A stretch of DNA of 48,677 nt, taken from positions 1-48,677 of the forward strand of contig JARLIG010000003.1 of assembly GCA_031291825.1 (NCBI GenBank), read 5' to 3'. Under the pieces are notes generated by a model. That model saw nothing but the letters and a program-made list of their open reading frames with translations. It made no database searches and had not been told where the DNA came from. This document shows positions 3,260 through 43,825 of this stretch, piece by piece. The translations under genes and the position numbers were made by a program. The stretch comes from Minisyncoccota bacterium (GTDB lineage Bacteria; Patescibacteriota; Minisyncoccia; Phycocordibacterales; UBA9973). Within the stretch, counting starts at the first letter, position 1. Each line of letters starts with the position of its first letter.

Positions 3260-4648
3260 ATGACTGGGGATGAATTTATTGAATCTGTTCTGGCCGTTTT
3301 TACGGAAATTTGGCCGATGCTTTTGATTATACTCATTGGTTTTTTGGCTATTGAGTTTCATCTAGTTACAGAGCTTTTGTCTTTGATTGGAGTTATTATT
3401 TTGGGTCGCATTACTTGGGCAATGTGGGTTCATTATGTTCAGCAAGATTTTATTTCTGGTATTGATTTTGTTTTATTGGAAATCATTCCTCCACGTGAAG
3501 TTTTACGTAGTCCAAAAGCCATGGAACTTTTTATTACCAATGCTCTGTACCATTGGAGCACAAAGGGAGGCCGAGAAGAATTTTGGCAGGGAGCTGTGTG
3601 GTTTTGGTTTTCGTTAGAAATCGCCTCAATCGACGGACAGGTGCATTTTTATATTAGGACACCGACACGTATCAGGGGATTAATTGAGACTCAAATGTAT
3701 GCGCAATATCCTCAGGCGCAGGTGAAGGCAGTAGAAGATTATACTTTAGCTGTGGATGAGATAACCCCTACGAGTGCTTGGAATGGCTGGGGATGTGAGT
3801 TTGCTTTAAAAAAACCAGAAGCATATCCACTTAAGACTTATGTTGATTTTGGACTCGATAAGGACCCGAAAGAAGAATTTAAGGTTGACCCTATTTCTCC
3901 AGTAGTGGAGCTTTTTGGTTCACTTAAAAAAGGTGAGCAGATGTGGATGCAAATTGTAGTTGCACCTTCAAAAAAAATGTATCACACCAAGGGAACTATT
4001 TTTGGTAAACATGATTGGGTAAAAGAAGCTGGTATACAAATGGCCAAGCTCTTAGCCCCATATAGTAGTTATAAAGAAGTTAAAACTGTCGAAGAGTTGG
4101 GGGTAGGAAGAGCTAGGATAGAAGTCCGTGTTCCACCACACCTAGACGAGGTGATGAAAAAAATGAGAGCAAAACCAGGGAAACTTGGTTTTGATACTGG
4201 CATTAGGGTTATGTATATAGCCAAAAAAGAAGCATTTGACATGAGCAGTCGCAGAAATTTACGTCTTGTTTTTCGGCAATATGCAGACCCTAACTCAAAT
4301 GAATTACTGCGCGTTAATTCAACTCAGGCAGATGCTTTTAATAGTTCATTTTTTGGACTTTCTCCAAAAAAGGTAATGGTTTTAGCAAACAGAATGCTCC
4401 ATGAATATCGTGAAAGAGGATTTTTTCATCTGCCAATGAGACACATATTTAACAATCATACTATTACTGGACCTATGGCAGTTATTGTTAAGCAATTTTG
4501 GTTGCCATATTTTCATCCGACAACTTTTGTCTTAAGTACAGAAGAGATAGCGACTATGTGGCACTTTCCTGGTCAGATTATGCGTGTGCCTACGCTGGAA
4601 CGTATTGAGTCGAAAGAAGCTTCTCCACCTACAAACTTACCAACTTAA
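3260..4648 (+). CDS. Hypothetical membrane protein (two N-terminal TM helices, large soluble domain)
   Basis: Long ORF in the operon frame. Hydrophobic stretches IWPMLLIILIGFLAIEF and LLSLIGVIILGRITWAMWV. No catalytic motif recognised. Confidence 0.6.
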   Translation: MTGDEFIESVLAVFTEIWPMLLIILIGFLAIEFHLVTELLSLIGVIILGRITWAMWVHYVQQDFISGIDFVLLEIIPPREVLRSPKAMELFITNALYHWSTKGGREEFWQGAVWFWFSLEIASIDGQVHFYIRTPTRIRGLIETQMYAQYPQAQVKAVEDYTLAVDEITPTSAWNGWGCEFALKKPEAYPLKTYVDFGLDKDPKEEFKVDPISPVVELFGSLKKGEQMWMQIVVAPSKKMYHTKGTIFGKHDWVKEAGIQMAKLLAPYSSYKEVKTVEELGVGRARIEVRVPPHLDEVMKKMRAKPGKLGFDTGIRVMYIAKKEAFDMSSRRNLRLVFRQYADPNSNELLRVNSTQADAFNSSFFGLSPKKVMVLANRMLHEYRERGFFHLPMRHIFNNHTITGPMAVIVKQFWLPYFHPTTFVLSTEEIATMWHFPGQIMRVPTLERIESKEASPPTNLPT

Positions 4649-4654
4649 TTTTTT

Positions 4655-5599
4655 ATGGAAAACTTCTTTTCATCAGAGGGTTTTAAACATTTCGTTCTAG
4701 ACCTAGTATTTAGTATTAAAAAACATGAGAAAATTATTTCTTATGTTTTTGGTGCGATTATATTTTTAGTACTTTCTTATTTTTTTTTATTAAGCGCGCC
4801 GGTAAATTTTCCAAAATCTTCTGTGATAGGAATAGATTCAGGAATGAGTCTGCGTAGTGTTTCAGCTCTCTTGAAAAATGACCAAGTCATACGTTCTCGG
4901 GTAATGTTCGAATATTCAGTAATAATATTGGGTGGAGAAAAACACATAGTTTCAGCTGATTATTCTTTCCCAAGTAGTCTATCAGTTTGGCAAGTTGCGA
5001 TGAGTATCATGAAGGGTGAGCATAAATCACCAGCTGTTTTGGTGACCATTCCAGAAGGTTTTAATTTAAATCAGATAGCAGATGTTTGTAAATTAAAATT
5101 AATTAATTTTAATGAGACTCAATTCTTAACAGAGACTGAGAACATGGAAGGATATCTTTTTCCGGATACTTATTTTTTCTTAAGTAATGCAAACGAGGAA
5201 GATGTTGTAAAATCCATGAATGAAAATTTTCAGAAAAAAATCACACCACTTTTACCACAAATAAATGCTTCTGGTCATTCAGAAAAAGACATCATAACGA
5301 TGGCATCTATTTTAGAAGGAGAAGCTCAGGGTGATACTGACATAGGAATTATTTCTGGAATTTTATGGAAAAGAATTAAAATTGGTATGCCGCTGGAGGT
5401 TGATTCTGCGCCGGAGACTTATAAAACCAAAGGTTTGCCGGAAAACCCCATTAACAATCCAGGATTGGAAGCTATTTTAGCCGCGATTAATCCGCAAAGT
5501 TCGCCTTATCTTTATTATTTGCATGATAAAAATGGTAATATTCACTATGCTACGACTTTTGCACAGCATCAGGCAAACATTAGAGAATATTTAAAATGA
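4655..5599 (+). CDS. mltG: Endolytic murein transglycosylase MltG (YceG-like)
   Basis: Single N-terminal TM helix, EGYLFPDTYFF signature, ASILEGEA catalytic region. Confidence 0.85.
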   Translation: MENFFSSEGFKHFVLDLVFSIKKHEKIISYVFGAIIFLVLSYFFLLSAPVNFPKSSVIGIDSGMSLRSVSALLKNDQVIRSRVMFEYSVIILGGEKHIVSADYSFPSSLSVWQVAMSIMKGEHKSPAVLVTIPEGFNLNQIADVCKLKLINFNETQFLTETENMEGYLFPDTYFFLSNANEEDVVKSMNENFQKKITPLLPQINASGHSEKDIITMASILEGEAQGDTDIGIISGILWKRIKIGMPLEVDSAPETYKTKGLPENPINNPGLEAILAAINPQSSPYLYYLHDKNGNIHYATTFAQHQANIREYLK

Positions 5600-5604
5600 A
5601 AAAG

Positions 5605-5650
5605 ATACAGACGTTGGACGTCTGGGGAACCGAGACGTCCAACGTCTATA
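5605..5650. repeat. GACGT palindromic element copy (inverted pair)
   Basis: CAGACGTTGGACGTCTGG, then GGAACCG, then AGACGTCCAACGTCT. The arms are reverse complements and each arm is itself a hairpin. Starts 6 nt after the mltG stop. Confidence 0.8.
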
Positions 5651-5660
5651 TCAAAATTAT

Positions 5661-6188
5661 ATGAAAAAACACAATTTTGCTTTTATTGATATAGAAACTA
5701 CAGGCTTAAACTTATTAAAGAATGAGATTATTGAAATTGGCTGTGTTCTCACAACACCTGACTTAAAAGTAATCGAAGAATTTGAATTGAAAATAAAACC
5801 AGAACATATAGAAACAGCTAACCAAATTGCTCTCAAGGTAAATCATTACAATAGAGAAGATTGGGAATCAGCTCTTAGTTTAGAAAAAGCTATTAAAATA
5901 TTTTCTAAAAAAGTTAGAGACTGTATTATGGTTGGACACAATGTATCTTTTGACTCTGGGTTTTTAGAATATACTTTTAATCAATTTAAAATAAAAAATC
6001 CGATGCATTATCACAAGTTAGATACTATTTCTATTGCTTGGGCAAAATTTCACAACGATCCAAGCTTCGAGCATTTCTCTTTACATGAAATGTGTTTGCA
6101 TTTTGGTATAAAAAACGAGCGTGCACATTCTGCTTTGCCTGATGCTCGTGCCACATATGAGCTTTACAAAAAACTCATGTCTCTGTAG
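5661..6188 (+). CDS. DEDDh 3'-5' exonuclease (DnaQ / Pol III epsilon-like)
   Basis: Exo motifs FIDIETTGL, VGHNVSFDSGFL, HSALPDA. Confidence 0.8.
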   Translation: MKKHNFAFIDIETTGLNLLKNEIIEIGCVLTTPDLKVIEEFELKIKPEHIETANQIALKVNHYNREDWESALSLEKAIKIFSKKVRDCIMVGHNVSFDSGFLEYTFNQFKIKNPMHYHKLDTISIAWAKFHNDPSFEHFSLHEMCLHFGIKNERAHSALPDARATYELYKKLMSL

Positions 6189-6293
6189 AATCAAAATATT
6201 CTCTAAAAAGCCCGCATAATTTTCTGCTGAAAATTTGCTTAGACTTCGGCCCGTCGGCCTACGTAAGACTTTTTATAGAACATTTTGATTCTA
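6186..6293. mobile_element. MITE-like element with 25-nt terminal inverted repeats filling the whole intergenic spacer
   Basis: Left TIR is TAGAATCAAAATATTCTCTAAAAAG (6186-6210). Reverse complement of 6269-6293 is TAGAATCAAAATGTTCTATAAAAAG (2 mismatches in 25). The left end is the TAG stop of the upstream gene and the right end is the A of the mnmA ATG. The GC-rich interior contains AATTTTCTGCTGAAAATT. Confidence 0.6.
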
Positions 6294-7453
6294 TGAGTAA
6301 CACAAAGAAGAAAATTGTATTCGTTGGACTTTCGGGAGGTGTAGACTCTGCGGTTTCTGCTGCGCTTCTGAAAAAACAAAATTATGAAGTTGTCGGAGTT
6401 TTTATCAAAACTTGGCATCCGGAGTTTTTAGTGTGCAACGAAGAAGAAGAACGTATGGACGCGATGCGCGTGGCAGCTCATTTAGATATCCCTTTTTTAA
6501 CTTTTGATTTTAGCGACGTTTACAAAAAAGAAGTTGCAGACTATATGATAAATGAGTATAAAACTGGAAGAACTCCAAATCCAGATGTGATGTGCAATAA
6601 AGAAGTGAAGTTTGGAGCATTTCTCAAAAAAGCACTTTCAATGGGTGCTGACTTTGTGGCGACTGGACATTATGCACAAGAGTTTTCAGAGCAGAATTTT
6701 AAAGGCGGAAGGTTCCGCCCGAAGGGTGGAGTAATGCCGAAAAATTCTGCTCTGAAAACGTTTTTAGTTAAAGGAATAGACCCCTCAAAAGATCAAAGTT
6801 ATTTTTTGTGGACATTAAAACAAGAACAATTAAGCAAAATTTTATTTCCAATTGGATATTTAAAAAAGACCGAAGTAAGAATTTTGGCGAAGAAATTTAA
6901 ATTACCAGTTGCGGAAAAGAAAGACAGTCAAGGGATTTGCTTTTTAGGCGCGGTAGATTTAAAAGAATTTTTGAAGCATTATATTAAATCAAAAAAAGGG
7001 AAAGTTGTTAATGAAAAAGGGGAGGATGTTGGCTATCATGATGGAGTAGTTTTCCACACATTAGGGGAGAGACATGGATTTACAATTACTAAAAAAGGTT
7101 CAACGGATGGCGCGTATTATGTCATTGGTAAGGATATTAAAAAAAATATTTTAGTTGTTTCGCAATCCCCAGACGTTGGACTGACGTTGGACACCCGCCA
7201 AGGGCGGATGTCCAACGTCGACCCAGACGTCCAACGTCTGGAACAAACTAATTGGATTTTAAAAATTCCAAAACCAAATAAAAATTATACAGCGCAAATC
7301 CGTTACCATGGAGAATTTTTTCCTTGTCAGATATTAATCAAATCAAAAACGGAGGTAGAAGTTTTATTCAAAAAACCAGTCATTATTGCCTCTGGTCAAT
7401 CCATTGTTGTTTATGACAAAGATGTTTGCCTGGGCGGCGGAGTGGTTGTATAA
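6293..7453 (+). CDS. mnmA: tRNA 2-thiouridine(34) synthase MnmA, carrying two in-frame palindromic insertions
   Basis: PP-loop SGGVDSAV, ATGHYA, KDQSYFL, DSQGICFLG, C-terminal barrel ending CLGGG. Confidence 0.9.
   Translation: MSNTKKKIVFVGLSGGVDSAVSAALLKKQNYEVVGVFIKTWHPEFLVCNEEEERMDAMRVAAHLDIPFLTFDFSDVYKKEVADYMINEYKTGRTPNPDVMCNKEVKFGAFLKKALSMGADFVATGHYAQEFSEQNFKGGRFRPKGGVMPKNSALKTFLVKGIDPSKDQSYFLWTLKQEQLSKILFPIGYLKKTEVRILAKKFKLPVAEKKDSQGICFLGAVDLKEFLKHYIKSKKGKVVNEKGEDVGYHDGVVFHTLGERHGFTITKKGSTDGAYYVIGKDIKKNILVVSQSPDVGLTLDTRQGRMSNVDPDVQRLEQTNWILKIPKPNKNYTAQIRYHGEFFPCQILIKSKTEVEVLFKKPVIIASGQSIVVYDKDVCLGGGVVV
6683..6758. repeat. Intragenic palindromic element (18-nt perfect inverted repeat, 40-nt GC-rich core)
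   Basis: TTTTCAGAGCAGAATTTT (6683-6700) is the exact reverse complement of AAAATTCTGCTCTGAAAA (6741-6758). The core contains the hairpin GGCGGAAGGTTCCGCC. Translated in frame as FSEQNFKGGRFRPKGGVMPKNSALKT. Confidence 0.8.
7169..7241. repeat. Intragenic copy of the GACGT palindromic element (long imperfect inverted repeat)
   Basis: CCAGACGTTGGACTGACGTTGGACACCCGCC, then AAG, then GGCGGATGTCCAACGTCGACCCAGACGTCCAACGTCTGG. Translated in frame as PDVGLTLDTRQGRMSNVDPDVQRLE. Confidence 0.8.
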
Positions 7454-7460
7454 TGGATAA

Positions 7461-7919
7461 ATGCAACAATTTTTTACACAAAACTATGATGTTATATTAA
7501 GATTAGTAACAGCAGTTTTTCTTGGTTTACTGGTTGGGGCAGAGAGAGTTTTAGTGCATAAAGAGGCTGGAATGAAAACGCATGCTTTAGTAGCAATGGG
7601 TGCGGCAGTTTTTGCTTTAGTGTCTGAACAATTAATACAAAAATATGCATATCTACCAGGGCTTAATCCAACTATGATTCCAGCTCAAATAGTACTAGGT
7701 ATTGGATTTTTAGGTGCTGGGTCAATAATGTTACAAGGCTCACGGCTCAAAGGTTTGACTACCGCGAGTGGACTTTGGGTTGTTGCCGGTATTGGTATGG
7801 CTTCTGGGTTAGGGTTTTATGGTTTGGCTTTTATTGCAACCGTTTTAATACTTTTGATTTTTACCTTGGTATATATACTTGAAAAACCTATTAGAAAAAT
7901 TTCTGGGGAGACAGAATAA
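7461..7919 (+). CDS. MgtC/SapB family membrane protein
   Basis: VGAERVLVHKEAGMKTHALVAMGAA signature and 4-5 TM helices. Confidence 0.8.
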   Translation: MQQFFTQNYDVILRLVTAVFLGLLVGAERVLVHKEAGMKTHALVAMGAAVFALVSEQLIQKYAYLPGLNPTMIPAQIVLGIGFLGAGSIMLQGSRLKGLTTASGLWVVAGIGMASGLGFYGLAFIATVLILLIFTLVYILEKPIRKISGETE

Positions 7920-26548: not shown

Positions 26549-26592
26549 CCAGACGTTGGACGTCTGTATGTATACAGACGTCCAACGTCTGG
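26549..26592. repeat. GACGT palindromic element, best-preserved copy (21-nt perfect arms)
   Basis: CCAGACGTTGGACGTCTGTAT-GT-ATACAGACGTCCAACGTCTGG, 15 nt after the dnaJ stop. Confidence 0.85.
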
Positions 26593-39935: not shown

Positions 39936-42437
39936 CTAGTTCCTTGATTCTAGGAATTTTTGGATAACTTTTTTGTCTCGTTTGAGCCAAGAGATATTGC
40001 CTTCGAGTCGTTCTATGACTTGCTCAATAGATCTTTTAGCGCCAGGAGCTTCGTGGGTGGCAAAAAATTTTTTGAAGGATTTTAAATGATGTTCTTCTGC
40101 ACTACCGTTGAGAGCTTTAACTGCGCGTCCTAAGGTGAGTCCGCCTTCGCCATAGCGTGTTACAAGCACTTTCCAATTCTTCTCTACAAAATTCCACCAA
40201 ATATCACGACCCAAAGGATTCATTCCCACGCCTGACAAAATACCAACTGTGTCTTGGGTGCGGACTTCTTTGGACATTGCAAATAGGCAGACCTTTTCTA
40301 GGATTTTTGGATCAGTGAAGTCACCCAAGGCATTTCCGATGCGATTTTTTTCTTCATGTAATGTTTCATTTTTATATAGTTTTATAAACATTTCATATTC
40401 TTTTTTATTTCCATAAGTCGCGACGATAGAGTAGATAGCACCTCTAATATCTGGAGTTATTTTTTCGCCTCTTTGCACTAATAAAAATTTATTCTGCGCG
40501 TCTTTAATTATTTTTTTATCTCCAGCTCTTCCAGCACGAGAAATAGCCAGCGATCTAAGAAGTGTGTCTGTGTGATTTTCGCCCTCTACTTTATTCCAAT
40601 CCAATCTTTCTGCAATGGGGGAAAATATTTCTCTGGTTATATTTCTAAAAGCTTTTTCTTCTGGGAGGAGTTGCTCTAGACGAGCTAGTCCCATAGCAAG
40701 TTCAAGCAAAACTGTGTAAGTATCTTCATTTTTAAAAGCTTTTAGAAATTCTAATGCATCAGTCGTGGGTATTGTTCCAGCCTCAGATAAAGCAAAAAGA
40801 TCTCTGACGATACCTAGTCTATCTATTTCTGGCAAAGTCTTTTCCAAGACTGGCTTAACTAATTTTTCTAAAAGTTCAGGAGAGTATGCTGTACGATAGA
40901 ATCCAGTTTCGCCTATGTTTATTTTTGTCCAAGAATTATTGGTATCTACCAAGATTGGTACTTCCCATTTTGTTTTTTCTTTATTATTTTGTTTTGAAAA
41001 AGGATTAGCAAAAAATCTCTCTTGGGTTAAGAATAAATAATTATTTTTTATTTCAGCTTTAATAACGGGGTAGCCAGGTTTAGAGGTCCAGTTTTTCATC
41101 ATTTTTGTGACTGGTTTTTTGGAAACTTTTTCAAATGCCTTCCATAGATGTATGGTCTCTGTATTTTTATAACTATGTTTTTTAAGATAATAACGCAAAC
41201 CATTGCGAAAATTTTCTTCACCTAGATAATTTGCAAGCATTCTAATAATCGAAGCACCCTTAGAATAAGATATCTCATCAAATATTTCTCCAATTTCATC
41301 GGGGTGGTGAACTTCAACTTCGATGGGGTGGGTTTTTGTTAATGCATCTAAGCGCAAAGCTATACCAAGGTCGCTCGTTGCAAATTGTGTCCAAATATTC
41401 CATTTTGGAAAAAGTTTATCTACTGCTAAGTATTCTATATAAGAAGCAAAACCCTCGTTTAACCATAAATGTGTCCACCATTCCATTGTGACTAGATTTC
41501 CAAACCACTGATGTGCAAGCTCATGAGCAATAACAAGAGCCACCCACTGTTTATTTGAAGTAGAAGAATTTTCTCCATCAACCAAAAGAGCACTTTCTCT
41601 ATAAGTGATAGCACCCCAATTTTCCATTGCGCCGGAAGAAAAGTCTGGAACAGCAATCATGTCGAGTACTGGCAGGGGATAATTTATGTCAAAGTATTTT
41701 TCGTAAAATTCCAAAGTTTTAACTGCGCATCCAAGAGCAAATTTTGCTTGATGCTTTTTGTTTGGAACTGTGTATACACGGACTCGTATATTTCTTTTTG
41801 TTTTAGCTTCTAAATATTCAAAATCTCCAACAATGAAAGCAAGTAGGTAGGTGGACATCTTTGGTGTTGGAGAAAATTTTACGATTTCGTATCCAGCTTC
41901 GTGTTCTAAAACAGAAACAGGCAGTGTGTTGGAAATTGCTGTTTTACCTTTTGGTATCACAAGTGAGACATTAAAAATTGCTTTGTGCGCTGGCTCATCA
42001 AAACAGGGAAAAGCACGGCGTGCATCAGTGGCCTCAAATTGTGTAGTGGCCATGTGATATTCTTTTTTTCCGATACTATAACGGCTGCGATAAAAACCTC
42101 GCATTTTATCATTTAGTATTCCTTTAAAAACCAAGGTGAGTTTTGTTTTTGAGGGCAGAATAAGTTTAGGAAATGAAAAAGTAGCGGTTTCCTTTTTAGA
42201 ATCATAAGAAATTTTTGCAAACACTTTTTCTTTTCCAATCGATGCATCAGCTGTGATTATCTCAATTTCCTTAGAGTGCAGGGTGATAGTTTTGGTTTTT
42301 TTAAAAACAGAAAGAGTGATTGTTTCCGTGCCTTCAAAAGTAAAATTTTCTAAATCAGGCTTTAGTTGTATGTCATATTCTTTGGGAATAATGTCTTTGG
42401 AAAGTCGCACATTTTTTGCAATATTTTTCTTTGGCAT
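39936..42437 (-). CDS. pepN: M1 family aminopeptidase (aminopeptidase N-like with ERAP1-like C-terminal domain)
   Basis: GAMEN exopeptidase motif and HELAHQWFGNLVTMEWWTHLWLNEGFA (HEXXH-x18-E). Confidence 0.9.
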   Translation of the reverse strand: MPKKNIAKNVRLSKDIIPKEYDIQLKPDLENFTFEGTETITLSVFKKTKTITLHSKEIEIITADASIGKEKVFAKISYDSKKETATFSFPKLILPSKTKLTLVFKGILNDKMRGFYRSRYSIGKKEYHMATTQFEATDARRAFPCFDEPAHKAIFNVSLVIPKGKTAISNTLPVSVLEHEAGYEIVKFSPTPKMSTYLLAFIVGDFEYLEAKTKRNIRVRVYTVPNKKHQAKFALGCAVKTLEFYEKYFDINYPLPVLDMIAVPDFSSGAMENWGAITYRESALLVDGENSSTSNKQWVALVIAHELAHQWFGNLVTMEWWTHLWLNEGFASYIEYLAVDKLFPKWNIWTQFATSDLGIALRLDALTKTHPIEVEVHHPDEIGEIFDEISYSKGASIIRMLANYLGEENFRNGLRYYLKKHSYKNTETIHLWKAFEKVSKKPVTKMMKNWTSKPGYPVIKAEIKNNYLFLTQERFFANPFSKQNNKEKTKWEVPILVDTNNSWTKINIGETGFYRTAYSPELLEKLVKPVLEKTLPEIDRLGIVRDLFALSEAGTIPTTDALEFLKAFKNEDTYTVLLELAMGLARLEQLLPEEKAFRNITREIFSPIAERLDWNKVEGENHTDTLLRSLAISRAGRAGDKKIIKDAQNKFLLVQRGEKITPDIRGAIYSIVATYGNKKEYEMFIKLYKNETLHEEKNRIGNALGDFTDPKILEKVCLFAMSKEVRTQDTVGILSGVGMNPLGRDIWWNFVEKNWKVLVTRYGEGGLTLGRAVKALNGSAEEHHLKSFKKFFATHEAPGAKRSIEQVIERLEGNISWLKRDKKVIQKFLESRN

Positions 42438-43232: not shown

Positions 43233-43799
43233 ATGCATTTAGAACAAAAAATAGAAGCAATACTTTTTTTTAAAGGCGAACCAGTCTCTTTGAAAAAACT
43301 TGAGGATATTTTAAAAGTTTCAAAAGAACAAATTGATGAGGCTATTTTAAATTTAAAAAATAATCTTACAAATAGAGGAATAGCGTTGATGGAAAAAGAT
43401 ACAGAAATTACTCTGGGCACGACTCCGGAATTAAGTAAATTGATTGAAGATTTACAAAAAGAAGAATTAAATAAAGAACTTTCCAAGGCTAGTTTAGAAA
43501 CTTTATCAATTATTCTTTATAAAAACGGCGCTAGTCGAGCAGAGATTGATTACATTCGAGGCGTAAATTCTAGTTTTACCTTACGTGCTTTGTCTGTTCG
43601 AGGACTCGTAGAAAAAACGGTAGACACTAAAGATAATCGCCGATACATTTACAAACCAAGCTTTGAACTACTAGCTTTCATGGGCGTCGCTTCAATTGAA
43701 GAGTTGCCGGACTATGCGGAAGTAAGTGGTTCTCTTAACGTAGCTGCAAAAAGTTTAGAAGAAGAAACTACAAAAGAATCAGACGTTGGACAACTGTAA
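43233..43799 (+). CDS. scpB: Segregation and condensation protein B
   Basis: IEAILFFKGEPVSLKKL...SLETLSIILYKNGASRAEIDYIRGVNS...LVEK. Confidence 0.88.
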   Translation: MHLEQKIEAILFFKGEPVSLKKLEDILKVSKEQIDEAILNLKNNLTNRGIALMEKDTEITLGTTPELSKLIEDLQKEELNKELSKASLETLSIILYKNGASRAEIDYIRGVNSSFTLRALSVRGLVEKTVDTKDNRRYIYKPSFELLAFMGVASIEELPDYAEVSGSLNVAAKSLEEETTKESDVGQL

Positions 43800-43821
43800 A
43801 CAGGTGTACAACGTCTGATTC
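43776..43821. repeat. GACGT palindromic element copy overlapping the scpB C-terminus and stop
   Basis: The left arm GAATCAGACGTTGGACAACTG pairs with the right arm CAGGTGTACAACGTCTGATTC. The element encodes SDVGQL-stop. Lies between convergent genes. Confidence 0.75.
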
Positions 43822-43825
43822 TAAT

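What the first reader, a model, noticed from the sequence alone, without database searches (positions are those of the whole stretch)
6683..6758. Second in-frame palindromic insertion in mnmA (18-nt perfect inverted repeat)
TTTTCAGAGCAGAATTTT (6683-6700) and its exact reverse complement (6741-6758) flank a 40-nt GC-rich core containing the hairpin GGCGGAAGGTTCCGCC. All of it is translated as FSEQNFKGGRFRPKGGVMPKNSALKT. In MnmA proteins I recall, GHY(A/V) is separated from L.(K/R)G.D..KDQSYFL by about 10 residues; here the gap is 29. An 18-bp perfect inverted repeat inside a CDS is very unlikely by chance. The arm sequence resembles AATTTTCTGCTGAAAATT inside the intergenic element at 6186-6293, so the two may belong to one family.
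Basis: partly seen in the sequence, partly recalled or inferred. Interest (0 to 1): 0.7.

Follow-up and report, generated by a model that had tools for sequence, protein, structure and literature searches.

The report
Translated palindromic repeat inside mnmA
A 78-base hairpin-forming repeat sits in frame inside the tRNA-thiolation gene mnmA of an ultra-small (Nomurabacteria-like) bacterium; it belongs to a dispersed family of such repeats that sit, translated, in loops of many housekeeping proteins of this lineage, much as Rickettsia palindromic elements do.

Summary
A perfect 19-nt inverted repeat (6682-6700 / 6741-6759) flanks a 40-nt GC-rich core in frame in mnmA; no shuffle reaches that length.

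It is one copy of a dispersed repeat, called family A here. The core GGAAGGTTCCGCCCGAAGGGTGGAGTAA occurs 36 times in reference genomes and about 66 more times in metagenomes, only in Nomurabacteria/Paceibacteria, and about 95% of copies are in frame in unrelated housekeeping genes.

Each copy has:
- a locus-specific but complementary outer stem;
- a palindromic AGAATTYT box;
- a covarying 3-bp helix;
- a conserved hairpin with fixed G·U wobbles.

Seven of 79 orthologous mnmA alleles lack any insert. The rest carry at least a dozen different palindrome families at the same loop, and a second mnmA loop (7169-7241 here) behaves the same way.

Best reading: a selfish, RPE-like coding palindromic element, translated as a tolerated 23-aa loop extension. 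Its arms are probably kept complementary by intrastrand template switching or gene conversion.

I found no target-site duplication, transposase, Rfam match or prior description in the papers searched.

The parts
6293..7453 (+). Host gene mnmA (tRNA 2-thiouridine synthase), 386 aa, carrying two in-frame palindromic inserts
   Evidence: ORF. Pfam tRNA_Me_trans HUP, PRC-barrel and beta-barrel domains. PDB MnmA E = 1e-82. 70-75% identity to Nomurabacteria/Paceibacterota MnmA.
6682..6759 (+). The whole family-A palindromic element (78 nt = 26 codons; net +69 nt relative to the empty allele). The '+' strand is the wobble-compatible top strand.
   Evidence: (covariance model hit 95.1 bits, E = 1.4e-17).
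6682..6691 (+). Outer stem, 5' half. The sequence is locus-specific and only the pairing is conserved.
   Evidence: Alignment columns 4-13 of A2: every pair shows double-sided changes; G·T and A·C mismatches are equally frequent, 24 vs 23.
6692..6700 (+). 5' palindromic box (CAGAATTTT; family consensus AGAATTYT)
   Evidence: AATT nearly invariant in 37 copies.
6704..6706 (+). Helix P2, 5' half (GGC), pairs with 6736-6738
   Evidence: Pair types GC/CG/AU/UA; all 3 pairs covary.
6707..6734 (+). Conserved core GGAAGGTTCCGCCCGAAGGGTGGAGTAA. Unpaired GGAAGG (6707-6712), hairpin P3 6713-6720 / 6724-6731 with loop GAA, unpaired TAA (6732-6734).
   Evidence: Found 36 times in genome contigs and in 66 metagenome stretches. 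U·G and G·U wobbles are fixed; pair 6718/6726 covaries as CG/GC/UA.
6736..6738 (+). Helix P2, 3' half (GCC)
6741..6749 (+). 3' palindromic box (AAAATTCTG)
6750..6759 (+). Outer stem, 3' half (locus-specific)
7169..7241 (+). Context: the second mnmA hot spot (between KNILVVSQ and TNWI), occupied here by a palindrome of another family (GACGTTGGAC, family F). In other genomes this loop holds family A, B, C and other elements.
   Evidence: Family-A copies at this loop in L084, L109 and L113.

Best explanation
The 78-nt segment is one copy of a non-autonomous, selfish palindromic DNA repeat (family A) that has colonised Nomurabacteria/Paceibacteria genomes. It works like the Rickettsia palindromic elements.

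Shown:
- It is a dispersed repeat with a conserved, strand-asymmetric GC-rich core and locus-specific complementary stems.
- It sits in frame in unrelated housekeeping genes.
- It is absent from some mnmA orthologues.
- The same mnmA loop holds many other palindrome families.

Inferred:
- It arrived by insertion into a permissive loop. In the PDB alignment this loop is the turn of a beta-hairpin in the PP-loop domain; the AF2 model itself puts a short helix at 133-136 before the coil. In empty alleles the DNA there is a short AT-rich quasi-palindrome.
- It is transcribed and translated with the gene as about 23 extra residues, tolerated rather than useful.
- Its arms stay perfectly complementary through DNA-level intrastrand template switching or gene conversion (quasi-palindrome correction), not through selection on the mRNA.
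- Copies within a genome are homogenised by conversion or recent copying.
- The core can be inverted in situ between the arms.

The enzyme or process that moves it is unknown.
For: - Repeat family: the core pattern is found 36 times in one-genome-per-species contigs, all Nomurabacteria/Paceibacteria, up to 4 copies per genome, and in 66 metagenome stretches; there are none in viral contigs.
- Coding position: 70 of 73 non-redundant copies lie in ORFs of 100 aa or more. Hosts are LeuRS, PheRS-beta, LigA, Dus, Tgt, UvrA, UvrC, CCA-adding enzyme, a methyltransferase and an FAD oxidase.
- Presence and absence: 7 of 79 mnmA alleles are empty. The others carry at least 12 palindrome families at the same loop, some in tandem.
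- Structure: 91.5% of cells are paired, 24 of 32 pairs have double-sided changes, and 0/500 shuffles do as well.
- DNA-level arm maintenance: outer-stem mismatches are symmetric (G·T 24, A·C 23) and are not enriched for G·U on the mRNA strand. Loop-less perfect palindromes exist at the same site (L076).
- Concerted evolution: in L073 the copies at site 1 and site 2 are 103/107 identical across exactly the palindrome, and the 4 differences form 2 compensated pairs. In L022 the cores are identical while the outer arms differ.
- Translation: every allele at the site whose sequence could be read (78 loci plus the window, plus L029; L012 is masked by N there) is stop-free and a multiple of 3.
- Location: the insert falls in alignment gaps at a beta-hairpin turn of solved MnmA structures. 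In the AF2 model it has pLDDT below 50 between strands 127-132 and 156-160.
- Inversion: + and - alleles at the same site share outer-arm sequence and length (LeuRS L173 vs L119/L086; LigA L159 vs L101). The two frames used have the same phase measured from the palindrome end.
- Template switching as a maintainer of coding palindromes is discussed in PMC6649704. The RPE precedent is summarised in PMC10969869.
Against: - No target-site duplication, no associated transposase identified, and no recent burst: copies in one genome have unrelated arms.
- Copy number per genome is low.
- The core is far better conserved than expected for a decaying selfish insert. Window vs L106 is 56/58 identical against 79.4% for the gene (P = 2e-4). 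By contrast, RPEs are reported to lose repeat identity (PMC6649704 discussion).
- Fixed wobble pairs work on one strand only (75 G·T vs 2 A·C in P3), which points to a single-stranded functional form.
- Strong frame bias: all 26 antisense-oriented coding copies in the reference-genome set use one frame, although two others are open in 34 and 29 of the 37 copies analysed. A few metagenome copies do sit in another frame.
- mnmA takes 9 of 36 exact-core copies, and 9 of 9 covariance-model hits in 592 kb. This is more than permissiveness alone obviously predicts.
Confidence: 0.68

Rival explanations
1. The core is a functional single-stranded nucleic-acid module, either DNA on one strand or an RNA transcribed independently of the host gene. 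It would be recognised by a dedicated protein, for example a Y1/HUH-type ssDNA transposase, a recombinase, or a nucleoid or replication factor. Its conservation in situ would then reflect that function, not just recent copying.
For: Fixed, strand-specific wobbles and conserved unpaired GGAAGG/UAA. Core 56/58 identical between orthologous copies whose arms are about 33% diverged. The inner stem shows 20 G·T vs 2 A·C. The palindromic AGAATTYT boxes look like a dimer-binding site (sequence reading only).
Against: No partner gene was found or searched for genome-wide. The element is absent from many orthologues and replaced there by unrelated families. The top strand lies on either strand relative to gene and GC skew (about 78:22). 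Within-genome homogenisation can explain the conservation without function. No Rfam family matches.
Confidence: 0.14
2. It is a cis-acting mRNA structure selected for the host, for example to pause ribosomes between MnmA sub-domains or to set mRNA half-life through an RNase.
For: A very stable hairpin (-44 kcal/mol, z = -8.6) with compensatory changes in the stem.
Against: The same element occurs in both orientations in coding regions, 54 antisense vs 16 sense. Stem mismatches are not biased to G·U on the mRNA strand: in antisense copies there are 25 G·U-type vs 40 A·C-type mismatches in mRNA sense. Seven orthologues have no hairpin of this size, and others have unrelated cores or loop-less palindromes.
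Confidence: 0.05
3. The extra 23 residues are an adaptive protein loop, for example a new tRNA or partner contact (Gly/Arg/Lys-rich GGRFRPKGG). The DNA palindrome is incidental.
For: Only two of the open frames are used among coding copies, and the peptides are Gly/Pro/Arg-rich.
Against: The two orientations give unrelated peptides (GGRFRPKGG vs LLHPSGGTF) at the same loop. At least 12 unrelated peptide families and empty alleles occur among 70-75% identical orthologues. Conservation is at nucleotide level, including synonymous positions and paired columns. The same peptide is found in about 15 unrelated enzymes.
Confidence: 0.05
4. The element is removed before or during translation, either as an intron-like excision or by translational bypassing, as with the 'byp' palindromes of Magnusiomyces mitochondria.
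For: GC-rich palindromes inside genes of an AT-rich genome resemble byp elements and mitochondrial GC clusters (PMC6649704 discussion).
Against: Every readable allele at the site, and 70 of 73 family-A copies, keep the frame and lack stops. That is unnecessary if the segment were not translated. No ribozyme or intron family matches.
Confidence: 0.03
5. It is an assembly or chimera artefact.
For: Palindromes can arise from library or assembly artefacts.
Against: The same element, in frame, at the same loop, appears in dozens of independent assemblies from different projects.
Confidence: 0.01

Closest known systems
Rickettsia palindromic elements (RPE; Ogata et al. 2000; summarised in PMC10969869)
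   Same: Palindromic repeats inserted in frame into many unrelated housekeeping genes of a small AT-rich genome. They are read in one preferred frame and tolerated as extra loops. Several families exist, and no transposase is known.
   Different: Not in Rickettsia, and no sequence relation was tested. Shorter (about 58-84 nt vs about 100-150 bp). GC-rich core with locus-specific outer stems kept nearly perfect, whereas RPEs are reported to lose repeat identity (PMC6649704). Both orientations and at least 12 families share the same two loops of one protein. The core is conserved in situ.
Bacterial MITEs (Correia/NEMIS, ERIC, Nezha, QMITE; PMC10969869, PMC2229807)
   Same: Small, non-autonomous, hairpin-forming, multicopy; sometimes intragenic and in frame.
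   Different: No target-site duplication. The terminal sequences are not conserved between copies; the conserved part is internal. No parent IS is known.
Coding palindromes of Nematomorpha mitochondrial genes (PMC6649704)
   Same: Perfect inverted repeats inside translated genes, gained and lost between species. The arms appear actively kept identical, with template switching or conversion proposed.
   Different: Those are not a dispersed family with a shared core. Their arms encode conserved protein regions. Here the arms encode a dispensable loop and flank a conserved repeat core.
REP/BIME elements with RAYT transposases, and IS200/IS605-type hairpin ends (PMC3733652)
   Same: Imperfect hairpins with conserved mismatches, strand asymmetry, and no target duplication.
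   Different: REPs are extragenic, 20-40 nt and tagged by GTAG or CGTC at one end. No such tag or RAYT gene is shown here, and the copies are overwhelmingly intragenic.
Mitochondrial GC clusters, double-hairpin elements and byp elements
   Same: GC-rich mobile palindromes in AT-rich genomes, sometimes inside coding regions.
   Different: byp elements are bypassed and need not keep the frame. Here the frame is always kept.

Membership tests
Rickettsia palindromic elements (RPE) | Dispersed palindromic repeat present in many copies per lineage | tested here: met
   36 genome and 66 metagenome stretches hold the core; up to 4 copies per genome.
Rickettsia palindromic elements (RPE) | Inserted in frame in unrelated protein-coding genes and read in a preferred frame | tested here: met
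   70 of 73 copies lie in ORFs of 100 aa or more. Only the GGRFRPKGG and LLHPSGGTF readings are used, with rare exceptions. At least 10 unrelated host families.
Rickettsia palindromic elements (RPE) | Sequence homology to RPE-1 to RPE-10, and occurrence in Rickettsia | not tested
   No RPE consensus was available in the tools. All hits are in Patescibacteria, so this is an analogue, not a member.
Rickettsia palindromic elements (RPE) | Copies deteriorate after insertion (loss of repeat identity) | tested here: not met
   Stems are 88-99% paired with compensated changes. The core is 56/58 identical between diverged orthologous copies.
MITE | Conserved terminal inverted repeats shared by all copies | tested here: not met
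   The outermost stems differ at every locus. Only the internal AGAATTYT boxes are shared.
MITE | Target-site duplication flanking the element | tested here: not met
   Direct repeats of 3-6 nt at the palindrome borders: 1, 0, 0 and 0 of 75, no more than the control. The borders are fuzzy, so very short duplications cannot be excluded.
MITE | A parent IS or transposase with matching ends | not tested
   Whole genomes were not scanned. No transposase was identified among the five genes annotated at 4.7-9.7 kb; the rest of the window was not annotated.
REP / RAYT | Extragenic 20-40 nt imperfect palindrome with a GTAG or CGTC tag | tested here: not met
   About 95% of copies are intragenic, the unit is 58-84 nt, and no terminal tag is seen.
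Known structured RNA families (Rfam 15, including ribozymes, introns, riboswitches) | Covariance-model match at or near the gathering score | tested here: not met
   The best overlapping hit is RtT at 16 bits, E = 8.8, against a gathering score of 45.
Translationally bypassed or spliced intragenic palindromes (byp elements, introns) | No constraint on frame or stops inside the element | tested here: not met
   All readable alleles at the site and 70 of 73 copies are stop-free and in frame.
Quasi-palindrome / coding-palindrome maintenance by template switching | Arms near-perfect with paired (compensated) differences; mismatches symmetric between strands | tested here: met
   Outer stem G·T 24 vs A·C 23. 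L073 shows 2 compensated pairs among 4 differences. Perfect loop-less palindromes occur at the site. The mechanism itself is not testable with these tools.

The most novel reading that the evidence does not exclude
Family A and its sister families are a previously undescribed kind of mobile hairpin in candidate-phyla-radiation bacteria. In this reading a conserved, strand-specific apical module (GGAAGG / wobble-containing hairpin / UAA between palindromic AGAATTYT boxes) is recognised as single-stranded DNA by an unidentified enzyme, or spreads without a transposase by template switching between hairpins. It homes to AT-rich quasi-palindromes at the tips of protein loops, leaves no target duplication, can flip in place between its self-correcting arms, and is kept intact in situ rather than decaying. 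That would make two MnmA loops (and loops of LigA, LeuRS and others) a continuously rewritten 'landing pad' that generates protein-loop diversity.
Probability: 0.2. Interest if true: 0.8.

Novelty: new variant of a known kind. Interest (0 to 1): 0.6.

Why it matters
Selfish DNA that lives inside protein-coding genes and is translated is known mainly from Rickettsia. Finding an independent, multi-family system in the streamlined genomes of Patescibacteria has several consequences.
- In-frame palindromic insertions may be a recurrent route by which reduced genomes tolerate mobile DNA.
- It explains part of the puzzling length variation and 'CPR-specific insertions' in conserved proteins.
- It warns annotators and phylogeneticists that such loops are not homologous protein characters.
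- The same two MnmA loops are hit by at least a dozen families in both orientations, and the stems appear to correct themselves. This gives a natural system for studying quasi-palindrome template switching, in-situ inversion and loop permissiveness.
- If the core has a partner enzyme, that would be a new mobility mechanism.

Tried and rejected
The arm is locus-specific, so this was the wrong probe.
- An Rfam scan at E up to 10 over 5500-7600 gave only noise.
- No copy of the core was found in viral contigs.
- The idea that one arm is simply the native host flank (an inverted target duplication) was rejected for LigA site 1. There the filled allele's arms (GAGCAGGATGTAG) lie between the host flank and the element box and have no counterpart in the empty allele. 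It remains possible that AT-rich box-like host sequence contributes.
- The target-site duplication test was negative.
- Hammerhead, K-turn and loop-E readings of the conserved unpaired bases were tried by eye. They did not fit the register fixed by the covarying helices.
- Replication-strand bias could not be separated from gene orientation, because the two are fully confounded.
- The AF2 model built from 56 homologues was poor (mean pLDDT 66.8). I used it only to note that both inserts have low confidence, and ran no fold search.
- Four metagenome hits (L140, L142, L144, L182) match the pattern by chance in an unrelated gene without arms, and were set aside.
- Literature searches for such elements in CPR, Patescibacteria or Nomurabacteria returned nothing relevant.
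Full report
**Observation.** The window is AT-rich (about 37% GC). ORF 6293-7453 is mnmA: Pfam HUP, PRC-barrel and beta-barrel domains, solved MnmA structures at E = 1e-82, and 70-75% identity to Candidatus Nomurabacteria/Paceibacterota MnmA.

Inside it, 6682-6700 and 6741-6759 form a perfect 19-nt inverted repeat around a 40-nt GC-rich core. No dinucleotide shuffle of the window reaches 19 nt (0/200, maximum 18). The window holds 7 inverted repeats of 14 nt or more against 0.15 expected. The strand folds at -44.1 kcal/mol as RNA (z = -8.6) and -24.6 as DNA (z = -7.8). The segment is in frame and reads FSEQNFKGGRFRPKGGVMPKNSALKT.

**Orthologue comparison.** I examined 120 protein homologues and 80 genomic loci, one per GTDB species. 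The stretch between ATGHY and KDQSYF is hypervariable.
- Seven loci have a 26-aa 'empty' form (ATGHYAQNKNFSLVKG.D.SKDQSYF).
- Five have 4-5 extra residues that form short hairpins.
- The remaining 67 carry 11-55 extra residues.
- Nearly all inserts are nucleotide-level hairpins, with perfect arms up to 28 nt, an AT-rich stem and a GC-rich core.
- At least a dozen core families recur (labelled A-Q), and some loci carry two in tandem.
- Every allele at the site whose sequence could be read is stop-free and in frame; the two loci that first escaped the anchor search were a masked stretch (L012, unreadable at the site) and a KNQ variant (L029).
- In solved MnmA structures the insert falls in gaps at the turn of a beta-hairpin of the PP-loop domain.
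- In an admittedly poor AF2 model (mean pLDDT 66.8) residues 135-154 have pLDDT below 50 between strands 127-132 and 156-160.

A second loop (KNILVVSQ...TNWI; window 7169-7241) behaves identically and hosts the same families.

**The family.** The window's core (family A) read on the opposite strand translates to LLHPSGGTF, which is the peptide seen at the same loop in other orthologues. The pattern GGAAGRTTCYGNCCNNNGGNNGRAGTAA occurs as follows:
- 36 times in genome contigs, all Nomurabacteria/Paceibacteria-type MAGs, up to 4 copies per genome;
- in 66 metagenome stretches, 4 of them chance matches without arms;
- never in viral contigs.

Of 73 non-redundant bona fide copies, 70 lie in ORFs of 100 aa or more: 16 with the top strand as sense (N-F/S-x-GGRFRPKGGVMPKN) and 54 as antisense (KNFSxLLHPSGGTFRxQN). 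Hosts include LeuRS, PheRS alpha and beta, IleRS, LigA (two sites), Dus, Tgt, UvrA, UvrC, CCA-adding enzyme, a SAM methyltransferase and an FAD-linked oxidase with three copies in one protein. Ten of these were confirmed by Pfam. PheRS alpha, IleRS and DNA polymerase III delta' were recognised from motifs only.

mnmA is a marked hot spot. It holds 9 of the 36 genome hits. It also holds all 9 strong hits of a family-A covariance model in 592 kb of mnmA loci plus flanks.

**Anatomy.** An ungapped alignment of 37 copies (A1/A2) gives an RNAalifold consensus that I tested by pair counting. 91.5% of cells are paired against 67% in shuffles and 42-57% when the partner is slid. 24 of 32 pairs have double-sided changes, and 0/500 shuffles do as well. 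From outside to inside the parts are:
- an outer stem whose sequence differs at every locus;
- a palindromic box AGAATTYT on each side;
- a 3-bp helix P2 that covaries freely (GGC:GCC, CGG:CCG, CGC:GCG, GAC:GUC and others);
- conserved unpaired GGAAGG and UAA;
- an 8-bp hairpin P3 with fixed U·G and G·U wobbles and one covarying pair (CG/GC/UA).

No Rfam family matches.

**What maintains it.** The outer stem shows G·T and A·C mismatches equally (24 vs 23). The inner stem and P3 are strongly one-sided (20 vs 2, and 75 vs 2). The outer stem therefore behaves like double-stranded, strand-symmetric DNA, while the core pairs on one strand only.

Oriented to the mRNA, stem mismatches are not enriched for G·U: in antisense copies there are 25 G·U-type vs 40 A·C-type. 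This argues against selection on an mRNA hairpin, as do the two orientations.

Perfect palindromes with 0-3 nt loops at the same site (L076, L041) also point to a DNA-level process. Intrastrand template switching or conversion of quasi-palindromes, as discussed for the coding palindromes of Nematomorpha mitochondria (PMC6649704), explains perfect yet fast-drifting arms without invoking function.

**Movement and homogenisation.** In several genomes the same family occupies both mnmA loops, and the two copies resemble each other more than orthologous copies do.
- L073: 103/107 identical over exactly the palindrome, and the 4 differences form 2 compensated pairs.
- L022: identical cores with differently compensated outer arms.

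This shows recent copying or gene conversion, and in L073 the arms travel with the core.

Empty alleles carry small AT-rich quasi-palindromes: CAAAATAAAAA|TTTTAGTTTG at mnmA site 1, and TAAAAT-N7-ATTTTA at LigA site 1. The net gain is 69 nt both at mnmA site 1 (window, L106, L002, L004, L033) and at LigA site 1 (L159, L101 against empty L085). There is no target-site duplication.

At the LeuRS site and LigA site 1, + and - oriented alleles share outer-arm sequence and total length. The two reading frames used have the same phase from the palindrome end. This is what inversion of the core between its own arms predicts. Tandem + and - copies (L101 LigA) show that independent insertions also occur.

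**Points that do not fit a simple decaying selfish insert.**
- The window and L106 share the insertion, with homologous arms about 33% diverged. Yet the 58-nt box-to-box unit is 56/58 identical against 79.4% for the gene (P = 2e-4).
- Frames -1 and -2 are open in 34 and 29 of 37 copies, but almost never used.
- Copy number per genome is low.
- No mobilising gene was identified.

Within-genome conversion can account for the first point and peptide-level filtering for the second. They still leave room for a functional or enzyme-recognised core.

**The intergenic hairpin at 6186-6293** is a separate family with its own homologues: L048, 94.5%, also just upstream of mnmA; and L084, L038, L073, L023.

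**Comparison and novelty.** The closest known system is the Rickettsia palindromic elements: in-frame, single preferred frame, unrelated housekeeping genes, several families (PMC10969869). This is an analogue, not a member. It occurs in a different phylum, is shorter, has a GC-rich conserved core with locus-specific self-correcting stems, shows no decay of pairing, appears in both orientations, and shows extreme reuse of the same loops by many families. It fails MITE criteria (no shared termini, no target-site duplication) and REP criteria (intragenic, no tag).

My literature searches found no description of such elements in CPR/Patescibacteria. That covers only the open-access library searched.

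**Verdict.** It is best described as a new, Patescibacteria-specific variant of translated palindromic repeat elements. Mechanism of spread and in-situ inversion are inferred, not shown.

Noticed in passing
window 7169-7241: A second in-frame palindrome in mnmA (family F, built from GACGTTGGAC units). It sits at a second hypervariable loop (KNILVVSQ...TNWI) that hosts families A, B, C, N, Q and others in other genomes.
   Followed up: partly
window 5604-5652, 26549-26592, 43775-43822: Three intergenic copies of the same GACGTTGGACGTC palindrome family. One is a 44-nt palindrome perfect except for a 2-nt centre. They may double as terminators.
   Followed up: partly
window 6186-6293: A 108-nt intergenic hairpin upstream of mnmA with 25-nt arms. 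Its core has its own homologues (L048 2907-2961 at the same position, 94.5%; L084, L038, L073, L023) and shares TCGGCCCGTCGGCCT with family E, which sits inside mnmA in L016, L020 and L060.
   Followed up: partly
window 40641-40749: A 16-nt perfect inverted repeat with a 77-nt spacer inside an 839-aa minus-strand ORF. It may be another coding palindrome.
   Followed up: no
L076 about 3360-3460 (mnmA site 1); L041: Perfect 48-nt palindrome with no spacer (L076), and 21-nt arms with a 3-nt loop (L041), inside mnmA. These are hairpins without a recognisable core, either footprints or proto-elements.
   Followed up: no
L087/L132 (FAD-linked oxidase); L101 (LigA Zn-finger loop): Three family-A copies within one ORF, and a tandem pair of family-A copies in opposite orientations within one protein loop.
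   Followed up: no
L173 vs L119/L086 (LeuRS); L159 vs L101 (LigA site 1): Alleles with the core in opposite orientations share outer-arm sequence and total length, suggesting the core flips in place between its arms.
   Followed up: partly
mnmA site 1 and site 2 empty alleles (e.g. L058 about 3356-3376; L061 site 2): Both hot spots start with nearly the same native sequence, (G/T)CGCAAAATAARAAY (A/S-Q-N-K-N). This could be a shared target motif, or a remnant of an older AT-rich element.
   Followed up: no
window, whole: Cumulative GC skew rises almost monotonically across the 48.7 kb and most genes are on the + strand, so the window lies within one replichore. No origin or terminus signal was seen.
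   Followed up: no
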